Virus record (IMG/VR): IMGVR_UViG_3300012286_000299
Span: 45,277 to 109,276 of that record
DNA from: a virus
Taxonomy: Duplodnaviria > Heunggongvirae > Uroviricota > Caudoviricetes
Length of the DNA: 64,000 bases
Reading direction: 5' to 3' (one strand)
How positions within the stretch are numbered: the first letter of the stretch is position 1; each line of letters starts with the position of its first letter. Both the position numbers and the translations under genes were made by a program. Positions 43,936 to 55,351 of the stretch are shown one piece after another. A model generated the notes under the pieces. The model was not told where the DNA came from, made no database searches, and saw only the letters and a program-made list of their open reading frames with translations.

Positions 43936-44076
43936 ATGATACAAGTTCAAAACATACATCAATTAAATAGCATAGCGCAGAGAGCCATTACAATGTGGTC
44001 GGATTCGTTATGTGGAGATGTTGTTCTTGGCTTTACGTATAATAACGAACCGAAACAAACCAAAACCGGGATATGA
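43936..44076 (+). CDS. Putative leader peptide (46 aa)
   Basis: ATG 17 nt after ATATTTAT motif, AAATAATAAA context; followed by terminator and tRNA cluster. Confidence 0.55.
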   Translation: MIQVQNIHQLNSIAQRAITMWSDSLCGDVVLGFTYNNEPKQTKTGI

Positions 44077-44108
44077 TATAAGTAATTATAACATATAAAT
44101 TCTAATAA

Positions 44109-44144
44109 GAAACCCGGATCAAAAAAAAGATTCGGGTTTTTTTT
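44109..44144 (+). terminator. Intrinsic terminator/attenuator before tRNA cluster
   Basis: AAACCCGGATC-A8-GATTCGGGTTT plus T run. Confidence 0.85.
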
Positions 44145-44152
44145 AAGAAAAA

Positions 44153-44184
44153 TTTGGAAATACAAAAAAAACTTCGTATATTAC
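44153..44184 (+). promoter_or_regulatory. Promoter of tRNA cluster
   Basis: TTTG-N20-TATATTAC. Confidence 0.75.
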
Positions 44185-44231
44185 GAATGTTAAAAAGATA
44201 AAGAGTTCATTGACATATTGGATAAAATTAA

Positions 44232-44319
44232 GGAGAGGTAAGCCAAGTCGGTCTACGGGTCGCGGTCTTGAAAACCGTTGGGTGTAACAGCCGTGTGAGT
44301 TCAAGTCTCACTCTCTCCG
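44232..44319 (+). tRNA. tRNA-Ser(TGA)
   Basis: GCGGT-CTTGAAA-ACCGT, long variable arm, GTGAG-TTCAAGT-CTCAC. Confidence 0.9.
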
Positions 44320-44325
44320 CAATAT

Positions 44326-44397
44326 TGCTTCATAGTGTAATGGTTAGCACAAAACACTTTGACTGTTTTAGTTTGAGTTCGAGTCTCAATGAAGCAT
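44326..44397 (+). tRNA. tRNA-Gln(TTG)
   Basis: AAACA-CTTTGAC-TGTTT; TGCTTCA/TGAAGCA acceptor. Confidence 0.9.
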
Positions 44398-44407
44398 CAA
44401 TTAATTT

Positions 44408-44483
44408 CTGGTAGTAGAGGAGTCCGGTTTATCTCGCTGGCCTTGGACGCTAGAGCACGCAGGTTCGAATCCTGCCTACCAGA
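44408..44483 (+). tRNA. tRNA-Pro(TGG)
   Basis: CTGGC-CTTGGAC-GCTAG; GCAGG-TTCGAAT-CCTGC. Confidence 0.9.
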
Positions 44484-44489
44484 CAACAT

Positions 44490-44562
44490 TCCTTCGAAGC
44501 TCATGTGGACGGGCACCGGGCTTTTAACTCGGGGGTAGTTGGTTCGAGGCCAACCGGGGGAA
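44490..44562 (+). tRNA. tRNA-Lys(TTT)
   Basis: CCGGG-CTTTTAA-CTCGG; GTTGG-TTCGAGG-CCAAC. Confidence 0.85.
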
Positions 44563-44650
44563 CAAAATCAACTAGTCACTGTAAAACCAGTGGGCGTCAG
44601 TAAGTATTCTGAGCGACGTTTAAATCCTGAAAGCAATTGTTGATTTATTT

Positions 44651-44721
44651 GCCTCTGTCGTCTAAAGGTAGGGCCGTTGTTTTACATGCAACAGGTGGTG
44701 GTTCGATTCCATCCAGAGGTA
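44651..44721 (+). tRNA. tRNA-Val(TAC), atypical
   Basis: GCCTCTG/CAGAGGT acceptor; anticodon loop only 6 nt (TTACAT); extra G before T loop. Confidence 0.55.
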
Positions 44722-44729
44722 CAAAAATT

Positions 44730-44810
44730 GGGTAGCAAAAGTCGTTCGGATACGGCAGCCGGTCTGTAAAATCGGTCCTCACGGGGGTGGTTCGAGTCCA
44801 CTGTTGCCCA
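44730..44810 (+). tRNA. tRNA-Tyr(GTA)
   Basis: CCGGT-CTGTAAA-ATCGG; variable arm; GGTGG-TTCGAGT-CCACT. Confidence 0.85.
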
Positions 44811-44874
44811 CAGAATAGTAGAGAAAGGGTAGTCCGTTCCCCTACAACCAGTATACAGGTAAGCGGACGCATAA

Positions 44875-44947
44875 GGAGCTTTGGCAGATCAGGTGATTGC
44901 GCTAGACTGAAAATCTAGAGGAACGGGCTCGATACCCGTAGGCTCCA
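44875..44947 (+). tRNA. tRNA-Phe(GAA)
   Basis: CTAGA-CTGAAAA-TCTAG; T loop CTCGATA atypical. Confidence 0.85.
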
Positions 44948-44956
44948 CAAAAAATT

Positions 44957-45028
44957 GGATTGTTAGCTCAGAGGCAGAGCGGTTGTTTGTTAGGCAACGG
45001 GTCGGGATTTCGAAATTCCCACAATCCT
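44957..45028 (+). tRNA. tRNA-Asn(GTT)
   Basis: GTTGT-TTGTTAG-GCAAC; GGATTGT/ACAATCC. Confidence 0.8.
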
Positions 45029-45034
45029 CAAAAT

Positions 45035-45106
45035 TGCTCTATCGTATAAAGGTTATTACGGTTGACTGTTAATCAATTTATCTAGGTTCGAGTCCTAGTG
45101 GAGCAG
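45035..45106 (+). tRNA. tRNA-Asn(GTT), second copy
   Basis: GTTGA-CTGTTAA-TCAAT; CTAGG-TTCGAGT-CCTAG. Confidence 0.9.
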
Positions 45107-45116
45107 CAAATAAAAA

Positions 45117-45240
45117 TGGGGAAGAAATTCAAAACACTCTCGCGAATTTCTTCAGGAATGATAGTTAAGTAAAGAGTTACATCGGTAAAAACAAGCACTT
45201 GAAATTGTAAGTTAGTTGGTTCGAATCCAACCTTCCCCAC
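45117..45240 (+). ncRNA. tRNA-like RNA with acceptor stem and T arm but non-canonical interior
   Basis: GGGGAAG/CTTCCCC stem stacked on GTTGG-TTCGAAT-CCAAC; ~90 nt interior with GAAGAAATTC/GAATTTCTTC hairpin. Confidence 0.5.
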
Positions 45241-45369
45241 AAAGACTTTTTGTTTGATTAGGAATAATAGGTAGGTCGATAATTATTCCATGGCCCAGAA
45301 ACAATTAGTTAATATCACCAAGGAGGGGTCCATTAGAGGTGATTAATAAATATCTATAAACTCCTGCCA

Positions 45370-45442
45370 CGGTGCGTAGCTCAATCGGTAGAGCGCTGAT
45401 CTGATACGTCAGAGGTAGTGGGATCGTAACCCGCCGTACCGA
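45370..45442 (+). tRNA. tRNA-Ile(GAT)
   Basis: CTGAT-CTGATAC-GTCAG; T loop ATCGTAA atypical. Confidence 0.85.
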
Positions 45443-45510
45443 CAGAAAACCTAGAGTGCTCATTGAATGATGTGGATACAATTCCCGTTCCTTAAGTTCT
45501 AGGTTAAATT

Positions 45511-45597
45511 GGAGAATAGTCTAATATTGGTTTGTAGTGGCATCCTGCTAAGATGTTCCAGGTAAAACTGGTGAGGGTTCGATTCCCTTGTTCTCCG
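45511..45597 (+). tRNA. tRNA-Ser(GCT)
   Basis: GCATC-CTGCTAA-GATGT; CCAG-GTAAAA-CTGG variable arm. Confidence 0.9.
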
Positions 45598-45726
45598 CAA
45601 AAACCTACTCACCGTCCTCATTACGTGTTTAAGGAACACAGGAGTAGAATAGTACGCTCGGTGACTCAGTGGTAAGACACTTTAAAATCTAAAGTACAAC
45701 GATAAGTTAATGGGTTCTTATCAAAT

Positions 45727-45796
45727 ACCGAATGATCTTGGTGATCGAGAATGGCTCATATCCGCTCTCAGATTGGTTCGAAACCAATATTCGGTA
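45727..45796 (+). tRNA. tRNA(CAT), atypical compact
   Basis: ACCGAAT/ATTCGGT acceptor, CTCATAT loop, ATTGG-TTCGAAA-CCAAT; minimal D arm. Confidence 0.55.
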
Positions 45797-45919
45797 CAAG
45801 TAGCCCCGCTCGCGAGGGGATCGTAAAACACAGTAAGCCTCTGACACAAGCTCAAGTAACTGTTCTCATCGTATAGGAGATAGAGTTAACCTTCTCGACG
45901 TCGTGTAAAAAGGTAATAT

Positions 45920-45992
45920 GGTGTTTGTAGCTGAATGGTAAAGCGCTTGATTGTGGTTCAAGAGATTGCGGGTTCGAGTCCCGTCTTACACC
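45920..45992 (+). tRNA. tRNA-His(GTG)
   Basis: CTTGA-TTGTGGT-TCAAG; encoded G-1 opposite C73. Confidence 0.88.
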
Positions 45993-45999
45993 CAAATAT

Positions 46000-46072
46000 G
46001 CCCCTGTGGTGGAATGGAAGACACAACGAGTTTAAGCCTCGTAAACTGCAGGTTCGACTCCTGTCAGGGGTA
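46000..46072 (+). tRNA. tRNA-Leu(TAA), short variable loop
   Basis: ACGAG-TTTAAGC-CTCGT; variable region AAACT only. Confidence 0.85.
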
Positions 46073-46077
46073 CAATT

Positions 46078-46149
46078 GGTCTTATAGTTTAATTGGAAAA
46101 ACTTATCGCTACGAACGATAGAACAAAGGTTCGATCCCTTTTAAGACCT
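46078..46149 (+). tRNA. tRNA-Arg(ACG)
   Basis: TATCG-CTACGAA-CGATA; GGTCTTA/TAAGACC. Confidence 0.88.
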
Positions 46150-46151
46150 CA

Positions 46152-46304
46152 AAACATAATTACAAAGCGTAGATAAGAAGACGTGGAGAGACGTGTCGCA
46201 AGGGTACACAGTTGGGATAAACAGAAATGTTCGGCTCTCGATGGCTGTGTGAAGCACTGAGAAATCAGAAACCAGATTCCTGATAAATCTTATCAATTAT
46301 GTTT
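46152..46304 (+). ncRNA. Unassigned structured RNA between tRNA genes
   Basis: AAACATAATT/AATTATGTTT closing stem, GATAAGA/TCTTATC, ACACAG/CTGTGT, CTGA-GAAA-TCAG. Confidence 0.45.
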
Positions 46305-46308
46305 ATTT

Positions 46309-46381
46309 GCCCTTATAGCATAAATGGAAATGCCACATCCTTCTAAGATGTTCAATACCTGTTCGAATCGGGTTAGGGGTA
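46309..46381 (+). tRNA. tRNA-Arg(TCT)
   Basis: ACATC-CTTCTAA-GATGT. Confidence 0.85.
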
Positions 46382-46387
46382 CAAAAT

Positions 46388-46458
46388 GCGTTCCGCAGAC
46401 AAGGTGTCGGTCAGGTCTCCAAAACCTCGACGGCTGGGTTCGATTCCTAGGGTTCGCG
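46388..46458 (+). tRNA. tRNA-Trp(CCA)
   Basis: AGGT-CTCCAAA-ACCT; two T-T mismatches in acceptor. Confidence 0.75.
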
Positions 46459-46495
46459 CAAATTTAAATAATTGTTTCACTAAAAACCAGAAATC

Positions 46496-47002
46496 ATGAG
46501 TAAGTATCAAAAAACACTCGTAGTGGATTCAAGCTTTATTGCAAGATCAATTATCAGTACTGAAAGAGCATTCGTGATTTCGTACAAGGGTAATGCTGAA
46601 GTAGTAGCTGAACATCCAGAAACTTTCGGATTAGTAAATCCGGAATTAGAAATTTTTAAACCTTCAATTATTAGGGTTTATAAGTATGTAAAGCAAAACA
46701 TTCAAAAAGTTCCTCCAACAAGAGAAAACATCTATAGAAGAGATAACTTTGAATGTGTATATTGTGGAGACAGCAACCAAAGAACATTAACGTTAGATCA
46801 CGTTATTCCTCAATCAAAAGGGGGAAGAAATACATGGGATAACTTAGTAACAGCTTGTAAAAGATGTAATAGTGAAAAAGCCGATTTAACATTAGAAGAA
46901 TTTGGAAAGGAAATACCAGAACCAAAACGTCCTCATTACTTAATGTTGTTAAGACAAATTCACGATATTCCAAAAGAATGGGAACATTTTTTACTTTTTT
47001 AG
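46496..47002 (+). CDS. HNH endonuclease (McrA-like)
   Basis: RRDNFECVYCG, LTLDHVIPQSKGG..TWDNLVTACKRCNSEK. Confidence 0.92.
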   Translation: MSKYQKTLVVDSSFIARSIISTERAFVISYKGNAEVVAEHPETFGLVNPELEIFKPSIIRVYKYVKQNIQKVPPTRENIYRRDNFECVYCGDSNQRTLTLDHVIPQSKGGRNTWDNLVTACKRCNSEKADLTLEEFGKEIPEPKRPHYLMLLRQIHDIPKEWEHFLLF

Positions 47003-47046
47003 TAGGATATTCAAAATAAATTTTGTATATTTAATTATAATAAAAT

Positions 47047-47126
47047 AAATAAACACCTGCTACGTAATCACTGCAGGATAACACGTACAGACAAGGAAGA
47101 AAAGGTCAGTCCAGGTGTTTTTATTT
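47047..47126 (+). ncRNA. Unassigned hairpin-closed element abutting tRNA-Cys
   Basis: AAACACCTG/CAGGTGTTT closing stem. Confidence 0.3.
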
Positions 47127-47198
47127 GGTCCTAAGGCTGATGGTTAAGCTCCACGTCTGCAAAACGTAGGATTTAAAGTTCGAATCTTTATAGGACCT
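47127..47198 (+). tRNA. tRNA-Cys(GCA)
   Basis: ACGT-CTGCAAA-ACGT; GGTCCTA/TAGGACC; T discriminator. Confidence 0.88.
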
Positions 47199-47201
47199 CA
47201 A

Positions 47202-47253
47202 AAAAACTTTTAAAAAAAGTTTGGTTACGCAAAAAATATTTCGTATATTTAAG
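47202..47253 (+). repeat. ~52-bp promoter cassette duplicated at 48854-48906
   Basis: AAAAACTTTT(T)AAAAAAAGTTTGGTTAYGCAAAAAATATTTCGTATATTYAAG; contains TTTG-N20-TATATT. Confidence 0.85.
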
Positions 47254-47273
47254 ATGTAATAAAATAAATAATT

Positions 47274-47347
47274 GCCCGAGTAGCCGAATTGGTATAGGCG
47301 CTAGACTTAGGATCTAGATTTTGCGAGTTCGAGTCTCGCCTTGGGTA
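47274..47347 (+). tRNA. tRNA-Leu(TAG), short variable loop
   Basis: CTAGA-CTTAGGA-TCTAG; variable region ATTTT. Confidence 0.88.
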
Positions 47348-47352
47348 CAAAA

Positions 47353-47421
47353 TTAGAGTTAGCTTATAGTAAAGCAGTAGGATTCGGTTCCTACAGAACG
47401 GATACGAAAACCGACTCTAAT
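47353..47421 (+). pseudogene. Degenerate tRNA-Pro(CGG)-like
   Basis: TTAGAGT/ACTCTAA acceptor, 8-nt anticodon loop ATTCGGTT, degenerate T loop. Confidence 0.45.
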
Positions 47422-47426
47422 TAAAT

Positions 47427-47500
47427 GCTTCTGACGCATAAACGGTGGTGCACTTGATTTGTAACCAAGACTAGAGTCGGTTCGATCCCGATCAGAAGCT
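47427..47500 (+). tRNA. tRNA-Thr(TGT)
   Basis: CTTGA-TTTGTAA-CCAAG; GCTTCTG/CAGAAGC. Confidence 0.85.
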
Positions 47501-47581
47501 CAGGTGTGTCTCGGTACGCTCTGACGAAAGTCAACGACGAGGTCTCGGTAGACAGAACGCGTCTGATTCTACCCATAATTT

Positions 47582-47654
47582 GCGGGTGTCGTATAAAGGC
47601 TAATTATCTTTGACTTCCAATCAAATGATGAGGGTTCGATTCCCTCCATCCGCT
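47582..47654 (+). tRNA. tRNA-Gly(TCC)
   Basis: TTTGA-CTTCCAA-TCAAA; GCGGGTG/CATCCGC; T73. Confidence 0.92.
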
Positions 47655-47661
47655 CAAAACT

Positions 47662-47733
47662 GTTGCGTTAGTGAAGAGGTTAACACGTATCACTTTCTAT
47701 GATAAGGCACGGGTTCGATCCCCGTACGCAATA
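47662..47733 (+). tRNA. tRNA-Glu(TTC)
   Basis: TATCA-CTTTCTA-TGATA; unusual T at position 37. Confidence 0.75.
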
Positions 47734-47738
47734 CAAAA

Positions 47739-47811
47739 GGGTCGGTAGCATAAATGGCAAATGCGCTTGATTTGCAATCAGGAAGATTGGGTTCGAATCC
47801 CACCGTATCCA
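47739..47811 (+). tRNA. tRNA-Ala(TGC)
   Basis: CTTGA-TTTGCAA-TCAGG; G3:T70 pair; two acceptor mismatches. Confidence 0.75.
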
Positions 47812-47879
47812 CTACCCCGACAGGTGAATAGCTTAATCGACTTTACAGATTTGACAACTTGGAATAGACAGGTAATTTT

Positions 47880-47951
47880 GGTCTATTGGTGTAATGGTAA
47901 CAGTACTATCCTGTCACGGTAGTGTAGAGGGTTCGATTCCCTCATAGACCG
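47880..47951 (+). tRNA. tRNA-Asp(GTC)
   Basis: CTATC-CTGTCAC-GGTAG; GGTCTAT/ATAGACC. Confidence 0.9.
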
Positions 47952-47953
47952 CA

Positions 47954-48042
47954 AAATAAGTAGTAAGTAATTGAGATACTTCGAAATCTATTAGCAAAAT
48001 TGAAACTTCAAAAATCTTCTCAATTCAATCATTCTCTTATTT
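47954..48042 (+). ncRNA. TACTTCG-family structured RNA, copy E (no tRNA module)
   Basis: AAATAAG/CTTATTT and AATTGAGA/TCTCAATT stems; arms nearly identical to copy C. Confidence 0.7.
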
Positions 48043-48046
48043 AATT

Positions 48047-48120
48047 CGAGGCATAGTAGAGTTGGTTACAATGTCGCCCTGTCACGGCGAAGGTCACGGG
48101 TTCGAGTCCCGTTGTCTCGG
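48047..48120 (+). tRNA. tRNA-Asp(GTC), second copy
   Basis: TCGCC-CTGTCAC-GGCGA; ACGGG-TTCGAGT-CCCGT. Confidence 0.9.
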
Positions 48121-48132
48121 CAAATATTAAAT

Positions 48133-48207
48133 GGCGGGTGGATCCGGTTGGTATCGGGGATAGTCTCATAAGCTATATTAAACGTGGTTCGATTCCACGA
48201 CGTCGCA
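48133..48207 (+). tRNA. tRNA(CAT), Met or Ile2, imperfect acceptor stem
   Basis: ATAGT-CTCATAA-GCTAT; CGTGG-TTCGATT-CCACG. Confidence 0.6.
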
Positions 48208-48218
48208 ACAAATTAAAC

Positions 48219-48320
48219 GGCAATGCTCTTAGGAGAGGCGGTGTTTCATGAGCACCAAATGAAGGAGTGGAATGTTAATGAGCTCTTAAACATTCTTCGG
48301 TTCGAATCCCCTCATTGCTA
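48219..48320 (+). ncRNA. tRNA-like RNA, CAT loop with very long variable arm
   Basis: GGCAATG/CATTGCT acceptor; GGTGT-TTCATGA-GCACC; GAATGTT/AACATTC extra hairpin; weak T stem. Confidence 0.45.
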
Positions 48321-48334
48321 CAAATAAAATACAT

Positions 48335-48406
48335 AGCGGGATAGAGCAGAGGCAGCTCGTTGGGCTCATAACCCAAAGGTCGGAGGTTCGAATCCTCCTC
48401 CCGCAA
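48335..48406 (+). tRNA. Initiator tRNA-Met(CAT)
   Basis: GGG/CCC at base of anticodon stem; 1:72 mismatch. Confidence 0.88.
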
Positions 48407-48412
48407 CTAATT

Positions 48413-48486
48413 GTCCTTTTAGCTCAGTTGGTTAGAGCAGCTCGCTCATAACGAGAAGGTCACAGGTTCGAGTCCTGTATAGGACA
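48413..48486 (+). tRNA. tRNA(CAT), elongator Met or Ile2
   Basis: CTCG-CTCATAA-CGAG; canonical D and T arms. Confidence 0.88.
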
Positions 48487-48552
48487 CTAAAATTTTATCC
48501 ATTATGAGGTCAATTCCTTCGTCTCCAATGTAAGTTAGCTACTGGCTAATTT

Positions 48553-48837: not shown

Positions 48838-48872
48838 ATAAAGAAAAATAAATAAAAACTTTTTAAAAAAAG

Positions 48873-48904
48873 TTTGGTTATGCAAAAAATATTTCGTATA
48901 TTCA
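48873..48904 (+). promoter_or_regulatory. Promoter of structured-RNA/TROVE unit
   Basis: TTTG-N20-TATATTCA. Confidence 0.8.
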
Positions 48905-48943
48905 AGCATAATAAAAAGATTAAAACGTTCATTGAAAAAAATA

Positions 48944-49076
48944 TTGTAAGTGGTAAGTAAGTAAGAGTTACTTCGTTTTTTAGCTCATCTGGTAGAGCAT
49001 AAATTTTTGGTATTTAAGGCAGCAGGTTCAACTCCTGCAAAAACTCACAGACACTCTCTTCACCATTCCCTTACAA
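48944..49076 (+). ncRNA. Y-RNA-like copy A enclosing a normal-order tRNA-Gln(TTG)-like cloverleaf (48975-49044)
   Basis: TTGTAAG/CTTACAA outer stem, GAGTTACTTCG motif, D arm GCTC..GAGC, TAAAT-TTTTGGT-ATTTA, GCAGG-TTCAACT-CCTGC. Confidence 0.7.
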
Positions 49077-49082
49077 CACATA

Positions 49083-49227
49083 TTATAAGTGGTAATAACA
49101 CGTGTTACTTCGCTCTGTTAAAGCCGTGGTCGTGGGTTCGAGCCCCACTCTGAGAAACGTAAATGTCGTCTTAGATAGCTCAGTTGGTAGAGCACGTAAA
49201 TCGACACAGTTAGTCATTCCCTTATAA
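49083..49227 (+). ncRNA. Y-RNA-like copy B with circularly permuted tRNA-Asn(GTT)-like module
   Basis: Order: anticodon hairpin, T arm, acceptor 3' TCTGAGA, loop, acceptor 5' TCTTAGA, D arm; TTATAAG/CTTATAA outer stem. Confidence 0.75.
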
Positions 49228-49235
49228 AAACATAA

Positions 49236-49315
49236 TCAAGTGGTAAGTATTTGAGATACTTCGCAAATTTTTAGGTATAATTTTCACAATCTTCTCAAAT
49301 CAATCATTCCCTTGA
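49236..49315 (+). ncRNA. Y-RNA-like copy C (no tRNA module)
   Basis: TCAAG/CTTGA and TTTGAGA/TCTCAAA stems; GAGATACTTCG motif. Confidence 0.7.
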
Positions 49316-49319
49316 CACA

Positions 49320-49466
49320 TAAAGTAGTAGTAATAGAAAGAGTTACTTCGTATATTGGTTCGATTCCAATATTTTCCGCCAAAACAGGAAAATTAGACAA
49401 ATGGTTAAGTCATCTAACTGCAAATTAGACAAAAATTGTTCACTCTTCTAAATGTTCTCTACTTAT
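49320..49466 (+). ncRNA. Y-RNA-like copy D with circularly permuted tRNA-Cys(GCA)-like module
   Basis: Order: T arm, acceptor 3' ATTTTCC-G-CCA, linker, acceptor 5' GGAAAAT, D arm, TCTAA-CTGCAAA-TTAGA. Confidence 0.78.
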
Positions 49467-49471
49467 TTATC

Positions 49472-49508
49472 AAGGGGATTAGGACGCAAAGCGACTCAAT
49501 CCCCTTTT
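49472..49508 (+). terminator. Hairpin/terminator-like element between RNA array and TROVE gene
   Basis: AAGGGGATT/AATCCCCTT stem plus short T run. Confidence 0.55.
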
Positions 49509-49551
49509 ATTTTGAATTAATACTTATTGTTTAATATAAATTTTTAAAGTT

Positions 49552-51129
49552 ATGGCAAGATACAACACAAAAGCAGTATCAAAAGTACAGACAGTAACTA
49601 ATCACCAAGGTGGTACAGGTTACGCTATCGATCCAAAATTGGAATTAATCGGTATTTTAGCAACAGGGTTAGATAACTCTTATTACGAAAAACTAACAGA
49701 TAAAGAAACTCGTTTCAAAACTCTGATTGTTGATTTAGCTAAGAAAGATCCTGAGTTCGTAGCCAAAGCATTGGTATACGCTAGAACAGTAATGGGACAA
49801 AGAACAGTTACTCACTTCGGTGCAGTAGCACTTACTCCAGCACTTTCTGGTAGAGCAGTTGCTAAAAAATTCTTCTCAAAGAGAGAGAAAAAAGTTAATA
49901 AAGGAGGTATCGTATTCAGATTGGATGATATTCTTGAAATTGTAGCATGTTACCAACACTTCAATCCAGGTAAAGCATTACCAAACTCGATGAAGAAAGG
50001 TTTCAAAACTGCATTAGAATCAGCAGATGCTTACGAATTGGCTAAATATCAAGGTAAAAATAGATCTGTGTCTCTTGTGGATGTTGTGAACTTAGTTCAC
50101 CCTACTCCAAAAGAAACAATGCAAGAAACTTTCAAACAGTTAATGAATGGAAATCTAAAACAATTCAATACTGTTGAGGATAAAAACACAAAAGCTGGAC
50201 AAGAAGTAGCTGCAAAAGTTAAGTCAGGTGAAATTACTAAAGCTCAAGCTGAAGTTGTTTTACAAGAAGCTAAAGAATCTAACTACGCTGAGTTAATCAA
50301 AACTAGAAAGATTGGATACCTAGCATTACTACGTAATTTAAGAAACATCTTAAATACTACAGGAAATGCTGAGTTAATCAAAGCAGCTTGTGAATTGTTA
50401 ACTGATGAGAAATTAATCAGACAGTCATTAGTATTTCCTCACCAAATTGATATCGCATTAGAGGTATTAGTTCTAGAGGTAGGAGCTTCTCAAGCTAGAC
50501 CATTCGTAGCAGCTTTAGATAAAGCATACGAATTAGCTATTCCAAACTTAACTGATTTATTTGCTCACGGTAGAACTGCAGTTGTATTCGATACATCAGG
50601 TTCTATGCACGGAATGGGTCAAGGAGTTAAGATCAATGGGAAAGCAATTAATAAACAATGTATGGAGAAAGCAGCCTTAATTGGTGCAACTCTTGCAAAA
50701 GGTATTGGAGCTGACTTATACCAATTCGGTACAACTTGTGAGGAAGTAAGATACAATCCAAATGATAGCATCAACACTATCAAGAGAATTGGATTATCTC
50801 AAGAAGGTAGAGTAGGTCACGGAACTAGTTTCAACTCAATCTTCGAAACATTAAGTAGATCAGGTAAGTATGATAGAATCTTTATCATCTCCGATTTACA
50901 AGGTGGAGATAGTATTGTAGGTAACAGTAGCTTTAAAAACTACAAATCTAAGTTCGGAGAACCAACAATCTACTCAATTGATATCCAAGGTTACGGGACT
51001 ACAATGTTCAAACCAGGAAACAAATTAGTACAATTGTTCGGATACTCAGCAGATATCTACGAGATGGTTAGACGTGCAGAAATGGACCCTAAAGCAATCT
51101 TAACAGCTATCAACGCTATTGAAATTTAA
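49552..51129 (+). CDS. Ro60/TROVE-domain RNA-binding protein with C-terminal vWA
   Basis: VTNHQGGTGY, DPEFVAKALVYAR, YELAKYQGK, YLALLRNLRNI, LVFPHQ, VFDTSGSM, IFIISDLQ, IDIQGYG. Confidence 0.92.
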   Translation: MARYNTKAVSKVQTVTNHQGGTGYAIDPKLELIGILATGLDNSYYEKLTDKETRFKTLIVDLAKKDPEFVAKALVYARTVMGQRTVTHFGAVALTPALSGRAVAKKFFSKREKKVNKGGIVFRLDDILEIVACYQHFNPGKALPNSMKKGFKTALESADAYELAKYQGKNRSVSLVDVVNLVHPTPKETMQETFKQLMNGNLKQFNTVEDKNTKAGQEVAAKVKSGEITKAQAEVVLQEAKESNYAELIKTRKIGYLALLRNLRNILNTTGNAELIKAACELLTDEKLIRQSLVFPHQIDIALEVLVLEVGASQARPFVAALDKAYELAIPNLTDLFAHGRTAVVFDTSGSMHGMGQGVKINGKAINKQCMEKAALIGATLAKGIGADLYQFGTTCEEVRYNPNDSINTIKRIGLSQEGRVGHGTSFNSIFETLSRSGKYDRIFIISDLQGGDSIVGNSSFKNYKSKFGEPTIYSIDIQGYGTTMFKPGNKLVQLFGYSADIYEMVRRAEMDPKAILTAINAIEI

Positions 51130-51158: not shown

Positions 51159-51194
51159 ATATTTATATGCACACATAAGTTCTTATATATTTTA

Positions 51195-51280
51195 TCGTAG
51201 TAAAAGCTTGGGGTACTTCGCAAATCAAAAACTTCGTGACTTCGCGTCACATACTTTATGACAAGCAATTAACCACCTCG
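51195..51280 (+). ncRNA. Possible degenerate TACTTCG-family copy F
   Basis: GTAGTAAAAGCTTGGGGTACTTCGCAAAT; GCTTG/CAAGC pairing; follows ATATTTAT motif. Confidence 0.35.
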
Positions 51281-51412
51281 TTTTTGTTACCTTGAGGACC
51301 ATTACTGGTGACAGTTTTAGGAGCATAAAAAAGGTAACCCCGCTAGGAGTTAAAGAGCAAAACCCATCTTGGGATTCTCGATTAAAATATATAAGAAATT
51401 TTTTAGAAAAAG

Positions 51413-51444
51413 CTTGCTTCGGCAGGCTTTTTTTCGTATATTTA
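51413..51444 (+). promoter_or_regulatory. Fused terminator-promoter cassette
   Basis: AAGCTTGC-TTCG-GCAGGCTT-T run-CG-TATATTTA; CTTG-N20-TATATTTA. Confidence 0.75.
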
Positions 51445-51468
51445 AGTATAAATAAAAAGATAAAGGTT

Positions 51469-51741
51469 ATGAAAGTAAAGTTATTAAAAAAGATTAGAAA
51501 AAGATATTCTATAATCCATTACCCAAACGGAATTTATTTGGGAGATCAGTTTTGGGAAGGTCCTCTTACATGTTTAGTAGATAATACTAATAAATGGAGA
51601 TTGCAAACTATGTTTGGTCAAAAAGAGGAAGGCTATAAAGCTCTATACAAACATATGATGTATTGGATTGAAAAAGATTATGGTCCACTTAAAAGTAAAA
51701 GTAGAAAAGTAACATCAGAACAACTCTGGTATAAAAAATAA
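51469..51741 (+). CDS. Hypothetical basic protein (90 aa)
   Basis: AAAGGTT-ATG just downstream of promoter; upstream extension to 51292 unlikely. Confidence 0.6.
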   Translation: MKVKLLKKIRKRYSIIHYPNGIYLGDQFWEGPLTCLVDNTNKWRLQTMFGQKEEGYKALYKHMMYWIEKDYGPLKSKSRKVTSEQLWYKK

Positions 51742-51746
51742 AAGTT

Positions 51747-52166
51747 ATGGATTTAGCAAGAGCAATATCAATAGCAGCAGTAGGATTTGAAAAAGTAATG
51801 GATAAAGGTGGACAACCTTATATCTTACATTGTCTTAGAGTAATGAATCAAATGGATACTGAAGAAGAAAAAATAGTAGCGATTTTACATGATACTGTTG
51901 AAGATGGAGTTATCACAATTGAGGAACTAATCAAAGAAAGATTCTCACAAAATGTAATTTATGCTTTGATTTTACTTACTCACGAGAAAGGAAAACCATA
52001 TGACGAATACATTAAAGGAATATCAATAGATACCTTAGCAACTAAAGTAAAATTAGCAGATTTAAAAGATAATTCTGACATTACACGATTAAAAGGTTTA
52101 ACTAAGAAAGACTTTGATAGAATGGAGAAATACCATAGATCATATGTCTATCTTTCAAAAATATAA
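51747..52166 (+). CDS. HD-domain hydrolase (RelA/SpoT-HD-like)
   Basis: DKGGQPYILHCLRV, AILHDTVED, VKLADLKDN. Confidence 0.85.
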   Translation: MDLARAISIAAVGFEKVMDKGGQPYILHCLRVMNQMDTEEEKIVAILHDTVEDGVITIEELIKERFSQNVIYALILLTHEKGKPYDEYIKGISIDTLATKVKLADLKDNSDITRLKGLTKKDFDRMEKYHRSYVYLSKI

Positions 52167-52168
52167 AA

Positions 52169-52822
52169 ATGAAAATAGTACTAGAAAATAACCAAAAACT
52201 ATTCTTTACATCAGATACACATTTTGGTCACTCAAACATTTGTAGTGCAACTACAACATGGACTGATGCCCAAGATATGACTAGAGATTTTCCTTCATTA
52301 GAAGCAATGAATGATGCTTTAGTAAATGGAATTAATAGTAAAGTAGGACAAAATGATATTTTAATTCATTTAGGTGATTGGTCATTTGGTGGGTTTGAAA
52401 ATATCCAAAAATTTAGAGATAGAATAGTTTGTAAAAACATTCACTTGATTTTAGGTAATCATGATCATCATATTATGAATGACAAAGATAATATTGCTGA
52501 CTTATTTTTATCAGTAAATCATTACGGATACATAACAGTAGTACGTCCTAATAAGAAACAAGAAAGACACGATAGATTCCGTTTTATTCTATGTCATTTT
52601 CCAATAGCGTCATGGCATGATATGAACCAAGGTGTAATTCACTTGCATGGTCACGTTCATTTACCACCACATTTAAGATTAGCTGAAGGTAAAGCAATGG
52701 ATGTTGGAGTAGATGGAAACGGTTTAGAGCCTTTATCATTAAACGAGATATTATCTATAATGAAAGATCAACCAATTAAAAAATTAGCATTACCAAAGGA
52801 TCATCATGAAAAAAGAATCTAA
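52169..52822 (+). CDS. Calcineurin-like metallophosphoesterase
   Basis: TSDTHFGH, HLGDW, LGNHD, HLHGHVH, DVGVD. Confidence 0.9.
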   Translation: MKIVLENNQKLFFTSDTHFGHSNICSATTTWTDAQDMTRDFPSLEAMNDALVNGINSKVGQNDILIHLGDWSFGGFENIQKFRDRIVCKNIHLILGNHDHHIMNDKDNIADLFLSVNHYGYITVVRPNKKQERHDRFRFILCHFPIASWHDMNQGVIHLHGHVHLPPHLRLAEGKAMDVGVDGNGLEPLSLNEILSIMKDQPIKKLALPKDHHEKRI

Positions 52823-53657
52823 AAAAATATTACACAAAGGAAGAATCTATCTGAAAGATGGAGTATGGGTAGTGAGATATGAAACTAAAGAGAAAGTTAA
52901 AGGAGGTTCTCCTAAACAACTTGGAAGTTATAATATCAGAACAAAAGCTAATTTTGTACCTATCATAGTAGAAGACACTAAAAATTTAATAGATCCTTAT
53001 AGTCAGGGTAAAGAAACTTGTTTTGAATATATCATAAAAACTGAAATAGAAAACGGTTATAAGAATCAACCACCAGGAACAATAGGGTTTGTAGCGCAAA
53101 CTAAACAAGTATGGTATGCTAAATTATGGCCTGTTTCTGAAATGGCTCAGGAATTGCAGCATTATTTTGAAACAACACCTCAAGAAAAAATTGATGAGGA
53201 TTGGGAGAAAGTAAAGGAATTTGATAACGTAGGACCAACAGTAGAAGAATTTTTAGGAATAAATCAAAATAATATGAAAGAGTTATTTTTATTAAGAGGA
53301 TTGCCTGGAGCAGGTAAATCAACATTAGCAAAGTCAATAGGTGGAATGCATGTCGAAGCTGATATGTACCATATGTACGAAGGAAAATATAACTTTGATG
53401 TTACTAAAATAAAAGAAGCTCATGCTTGGTGTCAAAATGCTGCAAAGGTTTGGATGAATAGTGGACTTCCTAAAGTAATAGTATCAAATACATTCACCCA
53501 AGAATGGGAAATGCAACCATACTTAGATTTAGCTAAAGAACATGGGTATAGAGTTTATTCTTTGATTGTAGAAAATAGACATGGAGGAGTAAATGAGCAT
53601 AATGTCCCACAAGAGGTATTAGAAAAAATGAAAAACCGATTCGAAATTTCATTATGA
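52806..53657 (+). CDS. P-loop kinase (AAA_33/polynucleotide-kinase-like) with unrelated N-terminal extension
   Basis: LRGLPGAGKST, EAD, AHAWCQ, VIVSNTFT, HNVPQEVLEKM; alternative start at 53274. Confidence 0.8.
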   Translation: MKKESKKILHKGRIYLKDGVWVVRYETKEKVKGGSPKQLGSYNIRTKANFVPIIVEDTKNLIDPYSQGKETCFEYIIKTEIENGYKNQPPGTIGFVAQTKQVWYAKLWPVSEMAQELQHYFETTPQEKIDEDWEKVKEFDNVGPTVEEFLGINQNNMKELFLLRGLPGAGKSTLAKSIGGMHVEADMYHMYEGKYNFDVTKIKEAHAWCQNAAKVWMNSGLPKVIVSNTFTQEWEMQPYLDLAKEHGYRVYSLIVENRHGGVNEHNVPQEVLEKMKNRFEISL

Positions 53658-53941
53658 AAGAAACATTTGAACAATACTTACAAAGACTAAAAGACAGACG
53701 TACAGAAGATGATTACAAGTACACTGATGAGGATTTTATCAAATATGAAGAATACATCAGAGATTGTTGTAAAAATGGAATGAGTGTTTACAAATGTTTA
53801 GAGTTTATGTATTTTGCAGAAAAAGATATGGACGATCAATTATTCAATAGAGAACCTAGAGAAGAAATCCAACCAGAACAAATTTGGAATGATGAGAAAA
53901 AAGAAGGAATAAAAAAATTAATACAAGAACATAAAAAATGA
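53654..53941 (+). CDS. Hypothetical protein
   Basis: 95 aa, ATGA overlaps. Confidence 0.55.
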   Translation: MKETFEQYLQRLKDRRTEDDYKYTDEDFIKYEEYIRDCCKNGMSVYKCLEFMYFAEKDMDDQLFNREPREEIQPEQIWNDEKKEGIKKLIQEHKK

Positions 53942-54237
53942 AATCAATCAGATTAGATAATAGTACTTATGTTCATGTATATGTTCATAGAATACCGGTA
54001 TCATTAGAAGAAGCAGTTATTTCAAGTGAAACAGGATCTTTCCCTGACTATGAAGAACTAGCTAATCAATACATTGATGCTTTAGATGATCATTGGTGTG
54101 TAGCATTTTTAGAAGAACTACACAAAGTATGTGCTCAAAGAATTGTAGAGCATTGGGAAGAATGTGCTCCTAATCAATTAGAAGAAGAACATTATAAACA
54201 ATATTTAAAATTTAAAAAGAATAAAGATGGAAAATAA
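53938..54237 (+). CDS. Hypothetical protein
   Basis: 99 aa, overlapping neighbours. Confidence 0.55.
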   Translation: MKSIRLDNSTYVHVYVHRIPVSLEEAVISSETGSFPDYEELANQYIDALDDHWCVAFLEELHKVCAQRIVEHWEECAPNQLEEEHYKQYLKFKKNKDGK

Positions 54238-55351
54238 CAATTCAGTTTGTTTTGTAGCAAAAATAAACGAAGTAAAAGCAATCGAAGGAGCTGATAACAT
54301 CGAACAAGCAGTTATCGGAGGATGGAATACTATTGTAAAAAAAGGAACACATTATGCTGGACAACTAGTAATAGTTGCAACTACTGATGCAGTTATTCCT
54401 GTAGAACTTTCTGACAAATATGGTGTAACCAACTACCTAAGAAAAGGACAAAGAGTAAGAACTGTAAAACTAAGAGGAGTTTACTCTGAATGTTTAGTAA
54501 TACCAATTACTCCAGGACATGAGATTAATTACTCAGAGGGTCAAGATATGATGTCAAAACTTGGCATTGTAAAATACGAACCACCAGTTAAACAAATTCA
54601 ACTTGCTTCAGGTAGAAAAATCAAATGGAGAGACAACCAAAACTTCCATATCTACTACAAATTCCCAAATCTTAAAAACGTAGCAGGAATGTTTACACAA
54701 GAAGATGAGGTTCAAATCACTAGAAAAATTCACGGTACAAATGCTAGATATGGTATTGTAAGAAAATCTAAATTATCATTCTGGGATAAAGTAAAAAAAT
54801 TCTTTAGAATAGCTGATAAGTGGATTGATTATGAGTATGTATACGGATCTCATAACTGTGAGAAAGGAAGTGACTCTCAAGGATTTTATTCAACTGATGT
54901 TTGGAGAACAGTTGCTGAGGGGTATGGTATTAAAGATAGACTTTGGGAAATGGTTAAACAATATAGTGTTGAGGATTTAGGATCTGGAGTAGTTCTTTAC
55001 GGAGAAATCTATGGGGCTGGAATTCAAAAGAATTATGATTATGGATTAACAGATATTAAATTTGTAGCATTTGACATCACAATAAATGGAGAATATTTAG
55101 CACCAGAAATAACTCATATAGTTACTTCTTGTGGGTTGCAACTTTCTCACGTAGAGGTTCTTTATGAAGGAAAATGGGATCAAGAAATTCAAGATGAATA
55201 TACATTCAACAACTTCATTGAAGGAACAAAAATACCACATGAAGGAATTGTAATCAAACATGCATCAGGTGATAGAAAGAAAGTAGCCAAAGTAATTAAT
55301 CCTGACTACTTAATCTACGGAGAGAAAAATGATGTAGGAGATTCTCATTAA
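54227..55351 (+). CDS. ATP-dependent RNA ligase with N-terminal OB-like domain (DRB0094/Rnl2-like)
   Basis: IEGADNIE, LRGVYSECL, motif I TRKIHGTN, YGEIYG..IQK, FDI, EGIVIK, KVINPDYL. Confidence 0.85.
   Translation: MENNNSVCFVAKINEVKAIEGADNIEQAVIGGWNTIVKKGTHYAGQLVIVATTDAVIPVELSDKYGVTNYLRKGQRVRTVKLRGVYSECLVIPITPGHEINYSEGQDMMSKLGIVKYEPPVKQIQLASGRKIKWRDNQNFHIYYKFPNLKNVAGMFTQEDEVQITRKIHGTNARYGIVRKSKLSFWDKVKKFFRIADKWIDYEYVYGSHNCEKGSDSQGFYSTDVWRTVAEGYGIKDRLWEMVKQYSVEDLGSGVVLYGEIYGAGIQKNYDYGLTDIKFVAFDITINGEYLAPEITHIVTSCGLQLSHVEVLYEGKWDQEIQDEYTFNNFIEGTKIPHEGIVIKHASGDRKKVAKVINPDYLIYGEKNDVGDSH

What the first reader, a model, noticed from the sequence alone, without database searches (positions are those of the whole stretch)
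48873..51129. Ro60/TROVE gene preceded by four related RNAs whose tRNA modules sit in different circular permutations
Seen: one promoter (48873-48904) is followed by four 80-150 nt elements (A-D) and then a full TROVE+vWA gene. All share a 5' arm (AAGTRGTA...GWGWTACTTCG) and a 3' arm (...CATTCCCTT or similar). Cargo differs: A is a normal-order tRNA-Gln-like cloverleaf, B a tRNA-Asn-like module opened between D and anticodon arms, C has no tRNA, D is a tRNA-Cys-like module opened at the variable loop. Established: bacterial Ro60 (Rsr) binds Y RNAs, YrlA-type Y RNAs carry a tRNA-like domain, and rsr loci are linked to RNA repair and tRNA damage. Inference: this is a phage Ro60 ribonucleoprotein platform in which one handle presents several tRNA mimics with intact anticodon loops, as decoys for host anticodon nucleases, as substrates for ligation into tRNA, or as adaptors. 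The conserved TACTTCG differs from the GNCGA-type Ro-binding motif I know, so it may be a distinct Y-RNA class. I cannot tell whether it has already been catalogued.
Basis: partly seen in the sequence, partly recalled or inferred. Interest (0 to 1): 0.95.

Follow-up and report, generated by a model that had tools for sequence, protein, structure and literature searches.

The report
Phage Ro60 with modular tRNA-carrying Y RNAs
A 173-kb phage encodes a Ro60 RNA-binding ring protein flanked by five or six small RNAs that share one base-paired "handle" and display nothing, a whole tRNA or rearranged tRNAs. This looks like an undescribed branch of the Ro60/Y-RNA particle, placed next to RNA-repair genes.

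Summary
Elements A (48946-49074), B (49085-49225), C (49236-49315) and D (49320-49465) precede a TROVE/Ro60 gene (49552-51129). I found a fifth copy inside the tRNA array (47956-48040) and a weaker sixth after the gene (51193-51383).

All share a two-helix handle formed by their 5' and 3' ends. Across 92 copies from about 30 phage loci, 93.8% of pair cells are paired, against 64.5% when shuffled, and all 15 pairs show compensatory changes.

In five whole phage genomes with hits, every strong hit lies within about 9 kb of the Ro60 gene. That includes a crAss-like gut phage.

- **A** carries a normal tRNA.
- **B** is YrlA-type (Rfam 33.8 bits, below the cut-off). Its "anticodon" hairpin is weak and best read as the YrlA V arm.
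- **C** has no tRNA part.
- **D** is a complete tRNA opened in the variable loop; all four arms and the 15:48 tertiary pair covary.

In near-identical D copies, variation falls almost only in the anticodon loop.

Best reading: a new Y-RNA subfamily that partners phage Ro60. Binding is not shown, and the decoy or repair-adaptor role is inference. The promoter is unverified, and a terminator separates the array from the gene. Earlier sessions of this scan noted the same handle on other phage DNA.

The parts
47956..48040 (+). Handle-only copy (C') between two tRNA-Asp genes in the tRNA array
   Evidence: R2 covariance model 73.7 bits, E 4.5e-14. Its G7:C to A7:U double change supports stem 1.
48873..48904 (+).
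   Evidence: No sigma-70-like hit here. A similar TTTGGTTA box lies at the same relative place in L005. Inference only.
48946..49074 (+). Element A: handle carrying a normal-order tRNA-Gln(UUG) cloverleaf (48974-49046)
   Evidence: ARAGORN; Rfam tRNA 54.7 bits; R2 57.7 bits.
49085..49225 (+). Element B: handle carrying a YrlA-type module (V-like mini hairpin, T arm, loop-closed acceptor stem, D arm)
   Evidence: Rfam YrlA RF02553 33.8 bits, model positions 23-87, below GA 69; R2 50.8 bits; V region weak and variable.
49236..49315 (+). Element C: handle with a short, non-tRNA loop
   Evidence: R2 73.9 bits; alignments A1 and A2.
49320..49465 (+). Element D: handle carrying a complete tRNA-Cys(GCA)-like module opened in the variable loop (T arm, acceptor stem closed by G-CCA-AAACA, D arm, anticodon arm)
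   Evidence: Rfam tRNA partial hit 31.1 bits at 49387-49442; R2 54.7 bits; all arms and the 15:48 pair covary among 10 homologues.
49472..49514 (+). Intrinsic terminator between the RNA array and the Ro60 gene
   Evidence: Hairpin of -17.2 kcal/mol, z -3.98, followed by a U tract. Conserved after D in L001.
49552..51129 (+). Ro60 (TROVE + vWA) gene, 525 aa
   Evidence: Pfam TROVE 9.3e-14; phmmer to phiLo Ro60 9KOP/9L5Y E 1.7e-19 over residues 16-516; relatives in 65 phage records.
51193..51383 (+). Candidate sixth handle element (F) with a 134-nt non-tRNA cargo, followed by a terminator at 51405-51434
   Evidence: R2 25.9 bits, E 0.0012 with filters off; homologous elements at L005 4602-4791 and L006 1484-1669; terminator z -5.1.
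51747..55351 (+). RNA end-healing and sealing genes: HD hydrolase 51747-52166, metallophosphoesterase 52169-52822, P-loop (polynucleotide-kinase-like) protein 52806-53657, RNA ligase with OB domain 54227-55351
   Evidence: Pfam, PHROGs, NCBIfam TIGR02306 RNA_lig_DRB0094 2.2e-26, below its cut-off.

Best explanation
These are partner RNAs of the phage's own Ro60 protein: a distinct subfamily of bacterial and phage Y RNAs.

**Handle.** Each RNA pairs its two ends into a handle:
- stem 1, written NNAAG-[U]-RG with CYCUUNN, has an invariant bulged U;
- a conserved internal loop follows, UAAG opposite AUU;
- helix 2 is free in sequence but always paired;
- the nearly invariant UAC(U/A)UCG comes next.

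By analogy with the bulged terminal helix of known Y RNAs, the handle is the Ro60-binding part (inferred).

**Cargo.** The far end is an exchangeable slot. It holds nothing (C, C'), a normal tRNA joined through its acceptor ends (A), a YrlA-type T/acceptor/D module (B), or a whole tRNA whose chain is opened in the variable loop (D). In D the handle projects where class II tRNAs carry their long variable arm, the acceptor end is capped, and the anticodon loop is exposed.

**Function (inferred).** The Ro60 particle presents tRNA-shaped modules to proteins that recognise tRNAs, within the contest over tRNA cleavage and repair. Such proteins could be host tRNA-cutting defence nucleases, host exonucleases such as PNPase, or the phage's adjacent kinase, phosphatase and ligase enzymes.

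**Shown:** family, structure, gene linkage and cargo anatomy. **Inferred:** Ro60 binding, processing into separate RNAs, and function.
For: 1. **Handle structure.** In 92 copies, 93.8% of pair cells are standard pairs against 64.5% in shuffles. All 15 pairs show double changes, and slid controls give 41-53% (51 copies). G-U pairs occur, and every copy lies on the Ro60 strand, so the pairing acts in RNA.
2. **Linkage from the RNA side.** A 5'-arm pattern scan of IMG/VR gave over 100 mostly chance hits. The nine new loci that also had a 3' arm all lie on contigs with a TROVE gene, eight of them within the fetched flank. TROVE identity to the query is 29-77% across all TROVE-bearing loci in that search.
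3. **Control DNA.** 901 kb of such DNA, with no TROVE gene in the fetched flanks, gave 3 hits at E<=0.01. TROVE loci gave 92 hits at E<=0.1 in 298 kb.
4. **Whole genomes.** In the window's own 173-kb genome all 5 strong hits lie within 1.6 kb upstream of Ro60. In three relatives (162-434 kb) and the crAss-like csAssE-Sib, all 18 hits lie within about 9 kb of it.
5. **Protein.** It aligns end to end with phiLo Ro60, which binds two phage Y-like RNAs in vitro (PMC12135203).
6. **Known architecture.** B matches the YrlA tRNA-like domain. A stem, internal loop, second stem and tRNA-like module is the published YrlA layout.
7. **Conserved unpaired bases.** Bulged U6 is U in 92/92, A11 in 92/92 and UAC.UC in 88-92/92, as expected for a protein-binding site.
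8. **D is under selection as a folded tRNA.** All arms and the 15:48 pair covary. Four near-identical copies have 9 variable columns of 143, while 4-fold sites of the neighbouring gene differ by 21-34%.
Against: - No binding or expression experiment exists for this RNA family.
- The published Ro-binding motifs (GGUCCGA, GNCGAAN0-1G) are absent as such.
- B is below Rfam's YrlA threshold.
- The model does not find the phiLo Yrl RNAs, the only phage Y-like RNAs with binding data.
- Single-sequence folding energies are not unusual, z -0.45 to -1.26.
- A scores as a perfectly good tRNA and might simply be one.
- The covariation counts come from an alignment fitted to the model's structure, which leans towards it.
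Confidence: 0.78

Rival explanations
1. The tRNA-bearing copies are working tRNA genes in unusual packaging. On this reading A is released by RNase P and 3' trimming. D matures as a permuted tRNA: the handle is cut off, the ends are joined by the neighbouring ligase, and the acceptor loop is opened at the encoded CCA. The handle is then a processing or chaperoning device.
For: - A is a full cloverleaf at 54.7 bits.
- D has a perfect 7-bp acceptor stem, a discriminator G and an encoded CCA.
- M. smegmatis YrlA is cut by RNase P and receives CCA (PMC4201824).
- A kinase, phosphatases and an RNA ligase lie next door.
- In csAssE-Sib two handle-embedded modules are annotated tRNA-Tyr and tRNA-Lys.
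Against: - Handle copies with no tRNA at all are the commonest class, 33 of 92.
- D-type closing loops are only 4-5 nt and lack CCA in L007, L052 and L012, so opening them is not a conserved step.
- One conserved body carries many different anticodons, which fits poorly with correct charging.
- In one cargo class the acceptor 5' strand is the invariant handle motif itself, giving only 4-5 pairs.
- L004 carries a UUA (stop-reading) anticodon and L012 an 8-nt loop.
- All three anticodons in the window duplicate canonical tRNA genes of the same phage.
- I saw no bulge-helix-bulge splice signal.
Confidence: 0.12
2. The handle is a transcript-processing or stabilising hairpin of phage tRNA operons, such as a nuclease site or spacer structure. 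It sits near Ro60 only because Ro60 genes lie in tRNA islands, and it does not bind Ro60.
For: - One copy lies between two tRNA-Asp genes.
- Many copies in relatives are interleaved with tRNAs.
- No binding data exist.
Against: - In the window's 25-tRNA array only one copy occurs. The rest cluster at the Ro60 gene.
- Phage DNA with no TROVE gene in the fetched flanks almost never has the handle.
- In csAssE-Sib the only three copies in 151 kb abut the Ro gene.
- Invariant unpaired bases and a conserved bulge suggest a specific protein partner.
Confidence: 0.07
3. The copies are DNA-level repeats with terminal inverted repeats (a small mobile element that captures tRNA pieces), not functional RNAs.
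For: - Copy number and content vary between close relatives.
- A variant lacking B exists as DNA.
- D is truncated next to an HNH-type ORF in L005.
Against: - Pairing is kept by compensatory changes rather than by sequence identity, and includes G-U pairs that would be mismatches in DNA.
- All copies lie on the Ro60 strand.
- The cargo keeps tRNA tertiary covariation.
- Bodies are far more conserved than neutral sites.
Confidence: 0.03

Closest known systems
YrlA, the tRNA-mimicking Y RNA of bacteria and mycobacteriophages (Rfam RF02553; Chen et al. 2014, PMC4201824)
   Same: - Encoded beside Ro60 on the same strand.
- The ends pair into a stem, internal loop and second stem.
- Element B has the same module order (V hairpin, T arm, capped acceptor stem, D arm), with a D arm identical to the consensus.
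- UUAC at the junction fits YrlA's conserved YUAY.
- Several Y RNAs per locus is also known (YrlA/YrlB).
   Different: - No GNCGAAN0-1G; the motif G-U-R-G-U-A-A-G with a bulged U sits at that place.
- An extra invariant UACUUCG.
- Scores are below Rfam's threshold.
- The same handle also carries no cargo, a normal tRNA, or a tRNA opened in the variable loop with a full anticodon arm. I found none of these described for YrlA in the papers I could read.
Deinococcus radiodurans Yrn1 (Chen et al. 2014, PMC4201824)
   Same: The tRNA-like part is in normal order (D-like, anticodon-like arm, T arm) with the Ro-binding stem in place of the acceptor stem. Element A and the 'UUCG-as-acceptor' copies in relatives have this arrangement.
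   Different: Yrn1 has a 6-nt 'anticodon' loop, a doubtful D arm and the metazoan-like binding helix. Element A is a complete cloverleaf that tRNA finders call a tRNA.
Thermus phage phiLo Ro60 with Yrl1 and Yrl2 (PMC12135203; PDB 9KOP, 9L5Y)
   Same: It is the only PDB sequence matched by phmmer, E 1.7e-19 full length. It is a phage Ro60 with two upstream stem-bulge-stem RNAs that it binds in vitro, and it forms complexes with host PNPase.
   Different: phiLo RNAs are defined by a CGAA motif and carry no tRNA module in the passages I read. The handle model finds nothing in the phiLo locus.
Permuted tRNA genes of the red alga Cyanidioschyzon merolae (from my own knowledge; not checked in a paper here)
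   Same: In D the 3' half precedes the 5' half, the acceptor ends are joined by a short linker, and CCA is encoded.
   Different: Those genes mature through a bulge-helix-bulge cut and circularisation into working tRNAs. Here the ends form a long conserved handle linked to Ro60. The linker is too short or lacks CCA in some homologues, and no splicing endonuclease signal is seen.
Salmonella rsr-yrlBA-rtcBA RNA repair operon (Hughes et al. 2020, PMC7790460)
   Same: Ro60 and Y RNAs are encoded together with RNA end-healing and ligation enzymes in a system tied to damaged tRNAs.
   Different: The repair enzymes here are of the kinase, phosphoesterase and ATP-dependent ligase type (DRB0094-like), not RtcB/RtcA. 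The system is phage-borne.

Membership tests
Y RNA (Ro60 partner RNA), general | Encoded next to a Ro60/TROVE gene, same strand | tested here: met
   All 92 model hits are on the TROVE strand. All strong hits in five whole phage genomes lie within about 9 kb of TROVE.
Y RNA (Ro60 partner RNA), general | 5' and 3' ends pair into a long stem with a conserved bulged helix | tested here: met
   15/15 pairs covary and 93.8% of cells are paired. The bulged U is invariant, 92/92.
Y RNA (Ro60 partner RNA), general | Conserved Ro-binding sequence (GGUCCGA in animals; GNCGAAN0-1G in YrlA/YrlB) | tested here: not met
   No such motif occurs in A-D. G-U-R-G-U-A-A-G occupies the equivalent place, sharing about 4 of 6 specified positions. 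Equivalence is inferred.
Y RNA (Ro60 partner RNA), general | Physically bound by Ro60 | not testable with these tools
   Needs pull-down or gel shift.
YrlA (Rfam RF02553) | Score at or above the Rfam gathering threshold (69 bits) | tested here: not met
   B scores 33.8 bits, local match to positions 23-87. Caulobacter phage CcrColossus, cited as one of the phages with Y RNA-like ncRNAs reported by Chen 2014, has a YrlA-like element that also scores only 42.3 bits.
YrlA (Rfam RF02553) | T arm, loop-closed acceptor-like stem, then D arm, with near-invariant T and D sequences | tested here: met
   Met for B only (alignment). G15:C48 is possible.
tRNA (RF00005) | Cloverleaf in normal order above threshold | tested here: met
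   A scores 54.7 bits against GA 29, and ARAGORN calls Gln(UUG). Whether it is released and charged was not testable.
Permuted tRNA gene | All four arms present in circularly permuted order with tRNA tertiary pairs | tested here: met
   D and 9 homologues: T, acceptor, D and anticodon stems all covary. The 15:48 pair switches between A:U and G:C in step, with one exception.
Permuted tRNA gene | Conserved means of opening the acceptor linker and joining the outer ends (bulge-helix-bulge, CCA end) | tested here: not met
   The linker is 4-5 nt without CCA in L007, L052 and L012. G-CCA is present in 5 of 10. No bulge-helix-bulge is seen; the outer ends form the conserved handle.

The most novel reading that the evidence does not exclude
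The Ro60 particle is an anticodon-programmable bait. Variable-loop-permuted (D) and acceptor-joined (A) modules display real anticodon stem-loops on an uncharged tRNA body tethered to Ro60. Phages retune the anticodon to match whichever tRNA their host's defence nucleases cut. The particle then soaks up the nuclease, or hands cut tRNAs to the adjacent healing and sealing enzymes.

Support: five near-identical D copies differ almost only at loop positions 32-36, with anticodons GAA, GUA, CAU, GUA and GAA. Neutral sites nearby differ by 21-34% and the rest of the RNA is frozen. The ten aligned D homologues carry eight different anticodons.
Probability: 0.2. Interest if true: 0.88.

Novelty: new variant of a known kind. 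Interest (0 to 1): 0.66.

Why it matters
Ro60 and Y RNAs are known from animals (as a lupus autoantigen) and a few bacteria, and what the RNA's outer module does is still open.

- **A natural series.** One handle, many cargoes: none, a whole tRNA, and two permutations. Anticodons change quickly between sister phages. That makes the question directly testable: which proteins read the cargo, and does the anticodon matter?
- **Spread.** The handle occurs in phages from aquatic metagenomes, in a human-gut crAss-like phage and in Caulobacter phage CcrColossus.
- **Annotation.** Some copies are annotated as ordinary tRNAs, so phage tRNA counts and codon-usage arguments may be inflated.
- **Repair context.** Sitting beside kinase, phosphatase and ligase genes ties phage Ro60 to the tRNA cleavage and repair arms race.

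Tried and rejected
- **Alternative 5'-arm hairpin.** RNAalifold on a MAFFT alignment of six handle-only copies proposed AAGUG with UACUU, with no covariation. I rejected it because CAGUAG/UACAUCG copies break it while keeping the terminal stem.
- **Single-sequence folding.** MFE z-scores are unremarkable, so they do not help either way.
- **Sequence and Rfam searches.** blastn of the locus against GenBank phages found no match. Rfam at gathering thresholds found only tRNAs.
- **Pattern scan.** The IMG/VR scan returned mostly chance hits and needed filtering by the 3' arm.
- **Other phages.** The handle model found nothing in the phiLo or Vibrio phage phiKT1024 Ro60 loci.
- **Searches that could not run.** Supplements of Chen 2014 and two Wolin reviews are not held.
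- **Bacterial genomes.** The genome-contig search found only two MAG contigs that look like the same phage group, so whether cellular rsr loci use this handle is open.
- **Sequencing runs.** All holders had small shares (at most 0.27) and are Logan contigs.
- **Laid contigs.** Contigs of related variants cover A-D in two RNA libraries. Depth cannot rank regions, DNA carry-over is possible, and uncovered stretches (48861-48947, 49470-49643 in the RNA runs) prove nothing. I draw no conclusion on transcription, ends or habitat.
- **B's hairpin.** I read it as the YrlA V arm and not as an anticodon arm. It folds at only -0.4 to -4.9 kcal/mol and is missing in csAssE-Sib.
- **Not used.** Complex prediction and structure prediction, because they cannot address protein-RNA binding.
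Full report
**What is there**

The window is part of a 173-kb IMG/VR phage record. A run of at least 25 tRNA genes (43757-48487) is followed by four tandem elements, a terminator and a 525-aa ORF.

The ORF (49552-51129) matches Pfam TROVE at 9e-14. It aligns over residues 16-516 with the crystal and cryo-EM sequence of Thermus phage phiLo Ro60 at E 1.7e-19. The DNA near 50590 encodes the vWA metal-site signature D-T-S-G-S. TROVE relatives occur in 65 GenBank phage records.

Downstream lie an HD hydrolase, a metallophosphoesterase, a P-loop kinase-like protein and an OB-fused RNA ligase nearest the DRB0094 type. Together these form an end-healing and sealing set.

**The elements**

- **A (48946-49074)** contains a cloverleaf that ARAGORN calls tRNA-Gln(UUG) and Rfam scores at 54.7 bits.
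- **B (49085-49225)** matches the tRNA-like core of Rfam YrlA (T arm, capped acceptor stem, D arm) at 33.8 bits. That is below the 69-bit threshold. CcrColossus, cited among the phages with reported Y RNA-like ncRNAs, has a YrlA-like element that reaches only 42.3 bits.
- **C (49236-49315)** has about 24 nt of non-tRNA loop.
- **D (49320-49465)** runs T arm, 7-bp acceptor stem closed by G-CCA-AAACA, D arm, then an anticodon arm with loop CUGCAAA.
- **A fifth copy** like C lies between two tRNA-Asp genes (47956-48040).
- **A weak sixth copy** with a long non-tRNA cargo follows the gene (51193-51383, 25.9 bits). It is conserved at the same place in L005 and L006.

An intrinsic terminator (49472-49514, z -3.98) separates D from the gene. 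Another (51405-51434, z -5.1) follows the sixth copy.

**The handle is a real RNA structure**

I built a covariance model from four handle-only copies with a hand-drawn structure. I searched 31 loci and rebuilt the model from the 51 hits. It then found 92 copies in 298 kb of Ro60 loci, all on the Ro60 strand.

On that alignment:
- 93.8% of pair cells are standard pairs, against 64.5% after shuffling.
- All 15 pairs show changes on both sides.
- Sliding the partners by 1-3 columns drops pairing to 41-53% (the same picture on 51 copies).

The alignment is fitted to the model, which favours it. Even so, the margin is large, and hand inspection shows the same compensations. G-U pairs and strict strandedness point to RNA, not DNA repeats.

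Unpaired positions are the most conserved. The bulged U and an A in the internal loop are invariant in 92/92, and UAC(U/A)UCG is conserved in 73-92 of 92.

**Linkage to Ro60**

Ro60 relatives of 57-77% identity in IMG/VR carry arrays of the same elements. So do relatives of 39%, 36% (a 635-kb megaphage) and about 29% identity.

From the RNA side, a 5'-arm pattern scan gave over 100 mostly chance loci. The nine new ones that also have a 3' arm all sit on TROVE contigs. 901 kb of the remaining DNA gave 3 hits.

In whole genomes:
- The window's phage has its 5 strong hits within 1.6 kb upstream of Ro60.
- Three relatives (162-434 kb) and the crAss-like gut phage csAssE-Sib have 18 hits, all within about 9 kb of Ro60.
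- In csAssE-Sib, two handle-embedded modules are annotated tRNA-Tyr and tRNA-Lys.
- Caulobacter phage CcrColossus, which has a YrlA-like element, also has a handle-only copie upstream at 24.7 bits.

**Cargo classes**

A rough motif-based sort of the 92 copies gives the following. Some 'T only' calls are misses of my D-arm pattern.

| Class | Copies |
|---|---|
| No tRNA part | 33 |
| T arm before D arm | 22 |
| D arm before T arm | 21 |
| T arm only | 14 |
| D arm only | 2 |

For D-type copies (10 aligned) every stem covaries. For example, the acceptor stem is AUUUUCC/GGAAAAU, AGUUUCC/GGAAAUU, AUUGUCC/GGACGAU or AUUGGCC/GGCUGAU. The anticodon stem is UCUAA/UUAGA, UCUGA/UCAGA, CAAUU/AAUUG or ACUGU/ACAGU (L009 and L012 read by hand).

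The base before the T stem tracks D-loop position 15. It is A15 with U in the window and L008, and G15 with C in the L001 group, L052, L009 and L012, with one exception in L007. This is the tRNA 15:48 tertiary pair. D therefore folds as an L-shaped tRNA whose chain enters and leaves within the variable loop. The handle stands where class II tRNAs have their long arm.

Closing loops begin with G in 9 of 10 and read G-CCA in 5 of 10. They are only 4-5 nt, without CCA, in L007, L052 and L012.

**Anticodon turnover**

Four D copies come from phages about 90% identical over 3.8 kb. They have 9 variable columns out of 143: five are loop positions 32-36, three are in the acceptor-closing loop and one is elsewhere. 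The hypergeometric P is 5e-6 for that clustering.

Their loops are AUGAAAA, CAGUAAA, CUCAUAA and CAGUAAA. A fifth copy (L145) has AUGAAAA.

Four-fold sites of the adjacent Ro60 gene differ by 21-34% between the same phages. The body is therefore under strong purifying selection. The anticodon changes at least as fast as neutral sites, and apparently faster: 3-4 of 5 positions differ between copies with different anticodons. The sample is small.

Across the ten aligned D-type copies the anticodons are GCA, GAA, GUA, CAU, UGA, UGU, CUU and AAC. A-type copies carry UUG, CUU, UCC, UGG and UUA on one conserved body.

In the window all three cargo anticodons duplicate canonical tRNA genes. The bodies are unrelated to those genes, and only the loops of D and B match.

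**Element B**

The hairpin read as an Asn anticodon arm has 3 bp. In relatives the region between UUCG and the T arm folds weakly (-0.4 to -4.9 kcal/mol), varies in shape, or is too short to fold. [quoted passage not shown] UUAC of the handle fits that motif. B is therefore a YrlA-type module on this handle.

**Relation to known motifs**

In the Rfam YrlA consensus, GNCGA closes stem 1 and the motif runs into the internal loop. Here G-U-R-G-U-A-A-G sits at the same place, with U bulged. More distant copies read GGUAGCGAA or GGUAGCAAG. I take this as the likely Ro60 contact, by analogy only.

Earlier sessions of this scan reported a 'CAGCAA' handle beside Ro60-like DUF2828 proteins, and the same TACTTCG handle in another freshwater phage. 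I did not test a link to the CAGCAA family.

**Public reads**

Contigs of related variants of the array are present in two metatranscriptome libraries and in a DNA run. One contig in an RNA library (X5) and one in a DNA run (X1) join A directly to C, so a natural variant lacks B. Nothing firmer can be drawn from contigs.

**Literature**

- YrlA-like RNAs are reported near Ro60 in 254 bacteria and 22 phages. M. smegmatis YrlA is cut by RNase P and gains CCA. Yrn1 and YrlA differ in module orientation (PMC4201824).
- phiLo Ro60 binds two Yrl RNAs and host PNPase (PMC12135203).
- Jumbo phages with TROVE proteins are noted in an RNA-repair context (PMC7824862).
- A Ro60-like protein of phage Bas63 counters a defence system, and its authors guess that some of its 'tRNAs' are Y RNAs (PMC11482910).

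I found no description of this handle, of variable-loop-permuted cargo, or of anticodon turnover. Rfam 15 has no family for it.

**Verdict**

This is a real, well-supported RNA family and a new variant of the Ro60/Y-RNA system. Binding, processing and function remain to be shown.

Noticed in passing
window 48134-48206 and 48218-48330: Two tRNA-sized structured stretches at the end of the tRNA array are not called by ARAGORN. The first has a CAU anticodon loop and an extended D stem (Rfam tRNA-Sec model 23.9 bits, below threshold). The second has a T arm but no clear cloverleaf.
   Followed up: partly
window 43757-43869 and 47427-47500: Rfam calls tRNAs here (38.5 and 43.4 bits) that ARAGORN misses. 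The first is 113 nt, so it may hold an intron or a long insertion.
   Followed up: no
window 51292-51741: The listed 149-aa ORF (TTG start, no family) overlaps the sixth handle element and a strong terminator (51405-51434). The real protein probably starts at the in-frame ATG at 51469.
   Followed up: partly
window 49081-49235: A natural variant lacks element B. One contig in an RNA library (X5) and one in a DNA run (X1) join 49081 to 49235, so elements behave as cassettes.
   Followed up: partly
L005 2099-2945: In a 70%-identical relative, the D element is cut off after its 5' arm. It is followed by a hairpin and an ORF with a Cys-rich HNH-like motif, as if a homing endonuclease gene had landed in D. 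The window has an HNH gene inside its tRNA array (46496-47002).
   Followed up: no
L004 918-992; L012 5333-5406: Handle-embedded tRNAs with a UUA anticodon (reads the UAA stop) and with an 8-nt anticodon loop (ARAGORN 'ttag'). These are odd for working tRNAs.
   Followed up: no
L147 (phage csAssE-Sib OR575929.1) 3498-3913: Three handle elements lie directly upstream of the annotated 'Ro sixty-related protein'. The GenBank tRNA-Tyr and tRNA-Lys features lie inside two of them.
   Followed up: partly
L024 (Caulobacter phage CcrColossus) 143-221: A GC-rich handle-only copy (GUGG...UUACUUC...AUUCCC, 24.7 bits) lies upstream of two sub-threshold YrlA-like matches at 390-503 and 588-684. Both RNA types therefore coexist at one Ro60 locus.
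   Followed up: partly
L101 3540-3661; L007 2647-2767; L144 1949-2077; L016 5085-5218: A further cargo class. Here the invariant CUUCG of the handle pairs with a 3' CGAAG/CGGAA and serves as a short acceptor stem for a normal-order D, anticodon and T module.
   Followed up: partly
window 41895-42848: A QueC-like (7-cyano-7-deazaguanine synthase) gene lies just upstream of the tRNA array.
   Followed up: no
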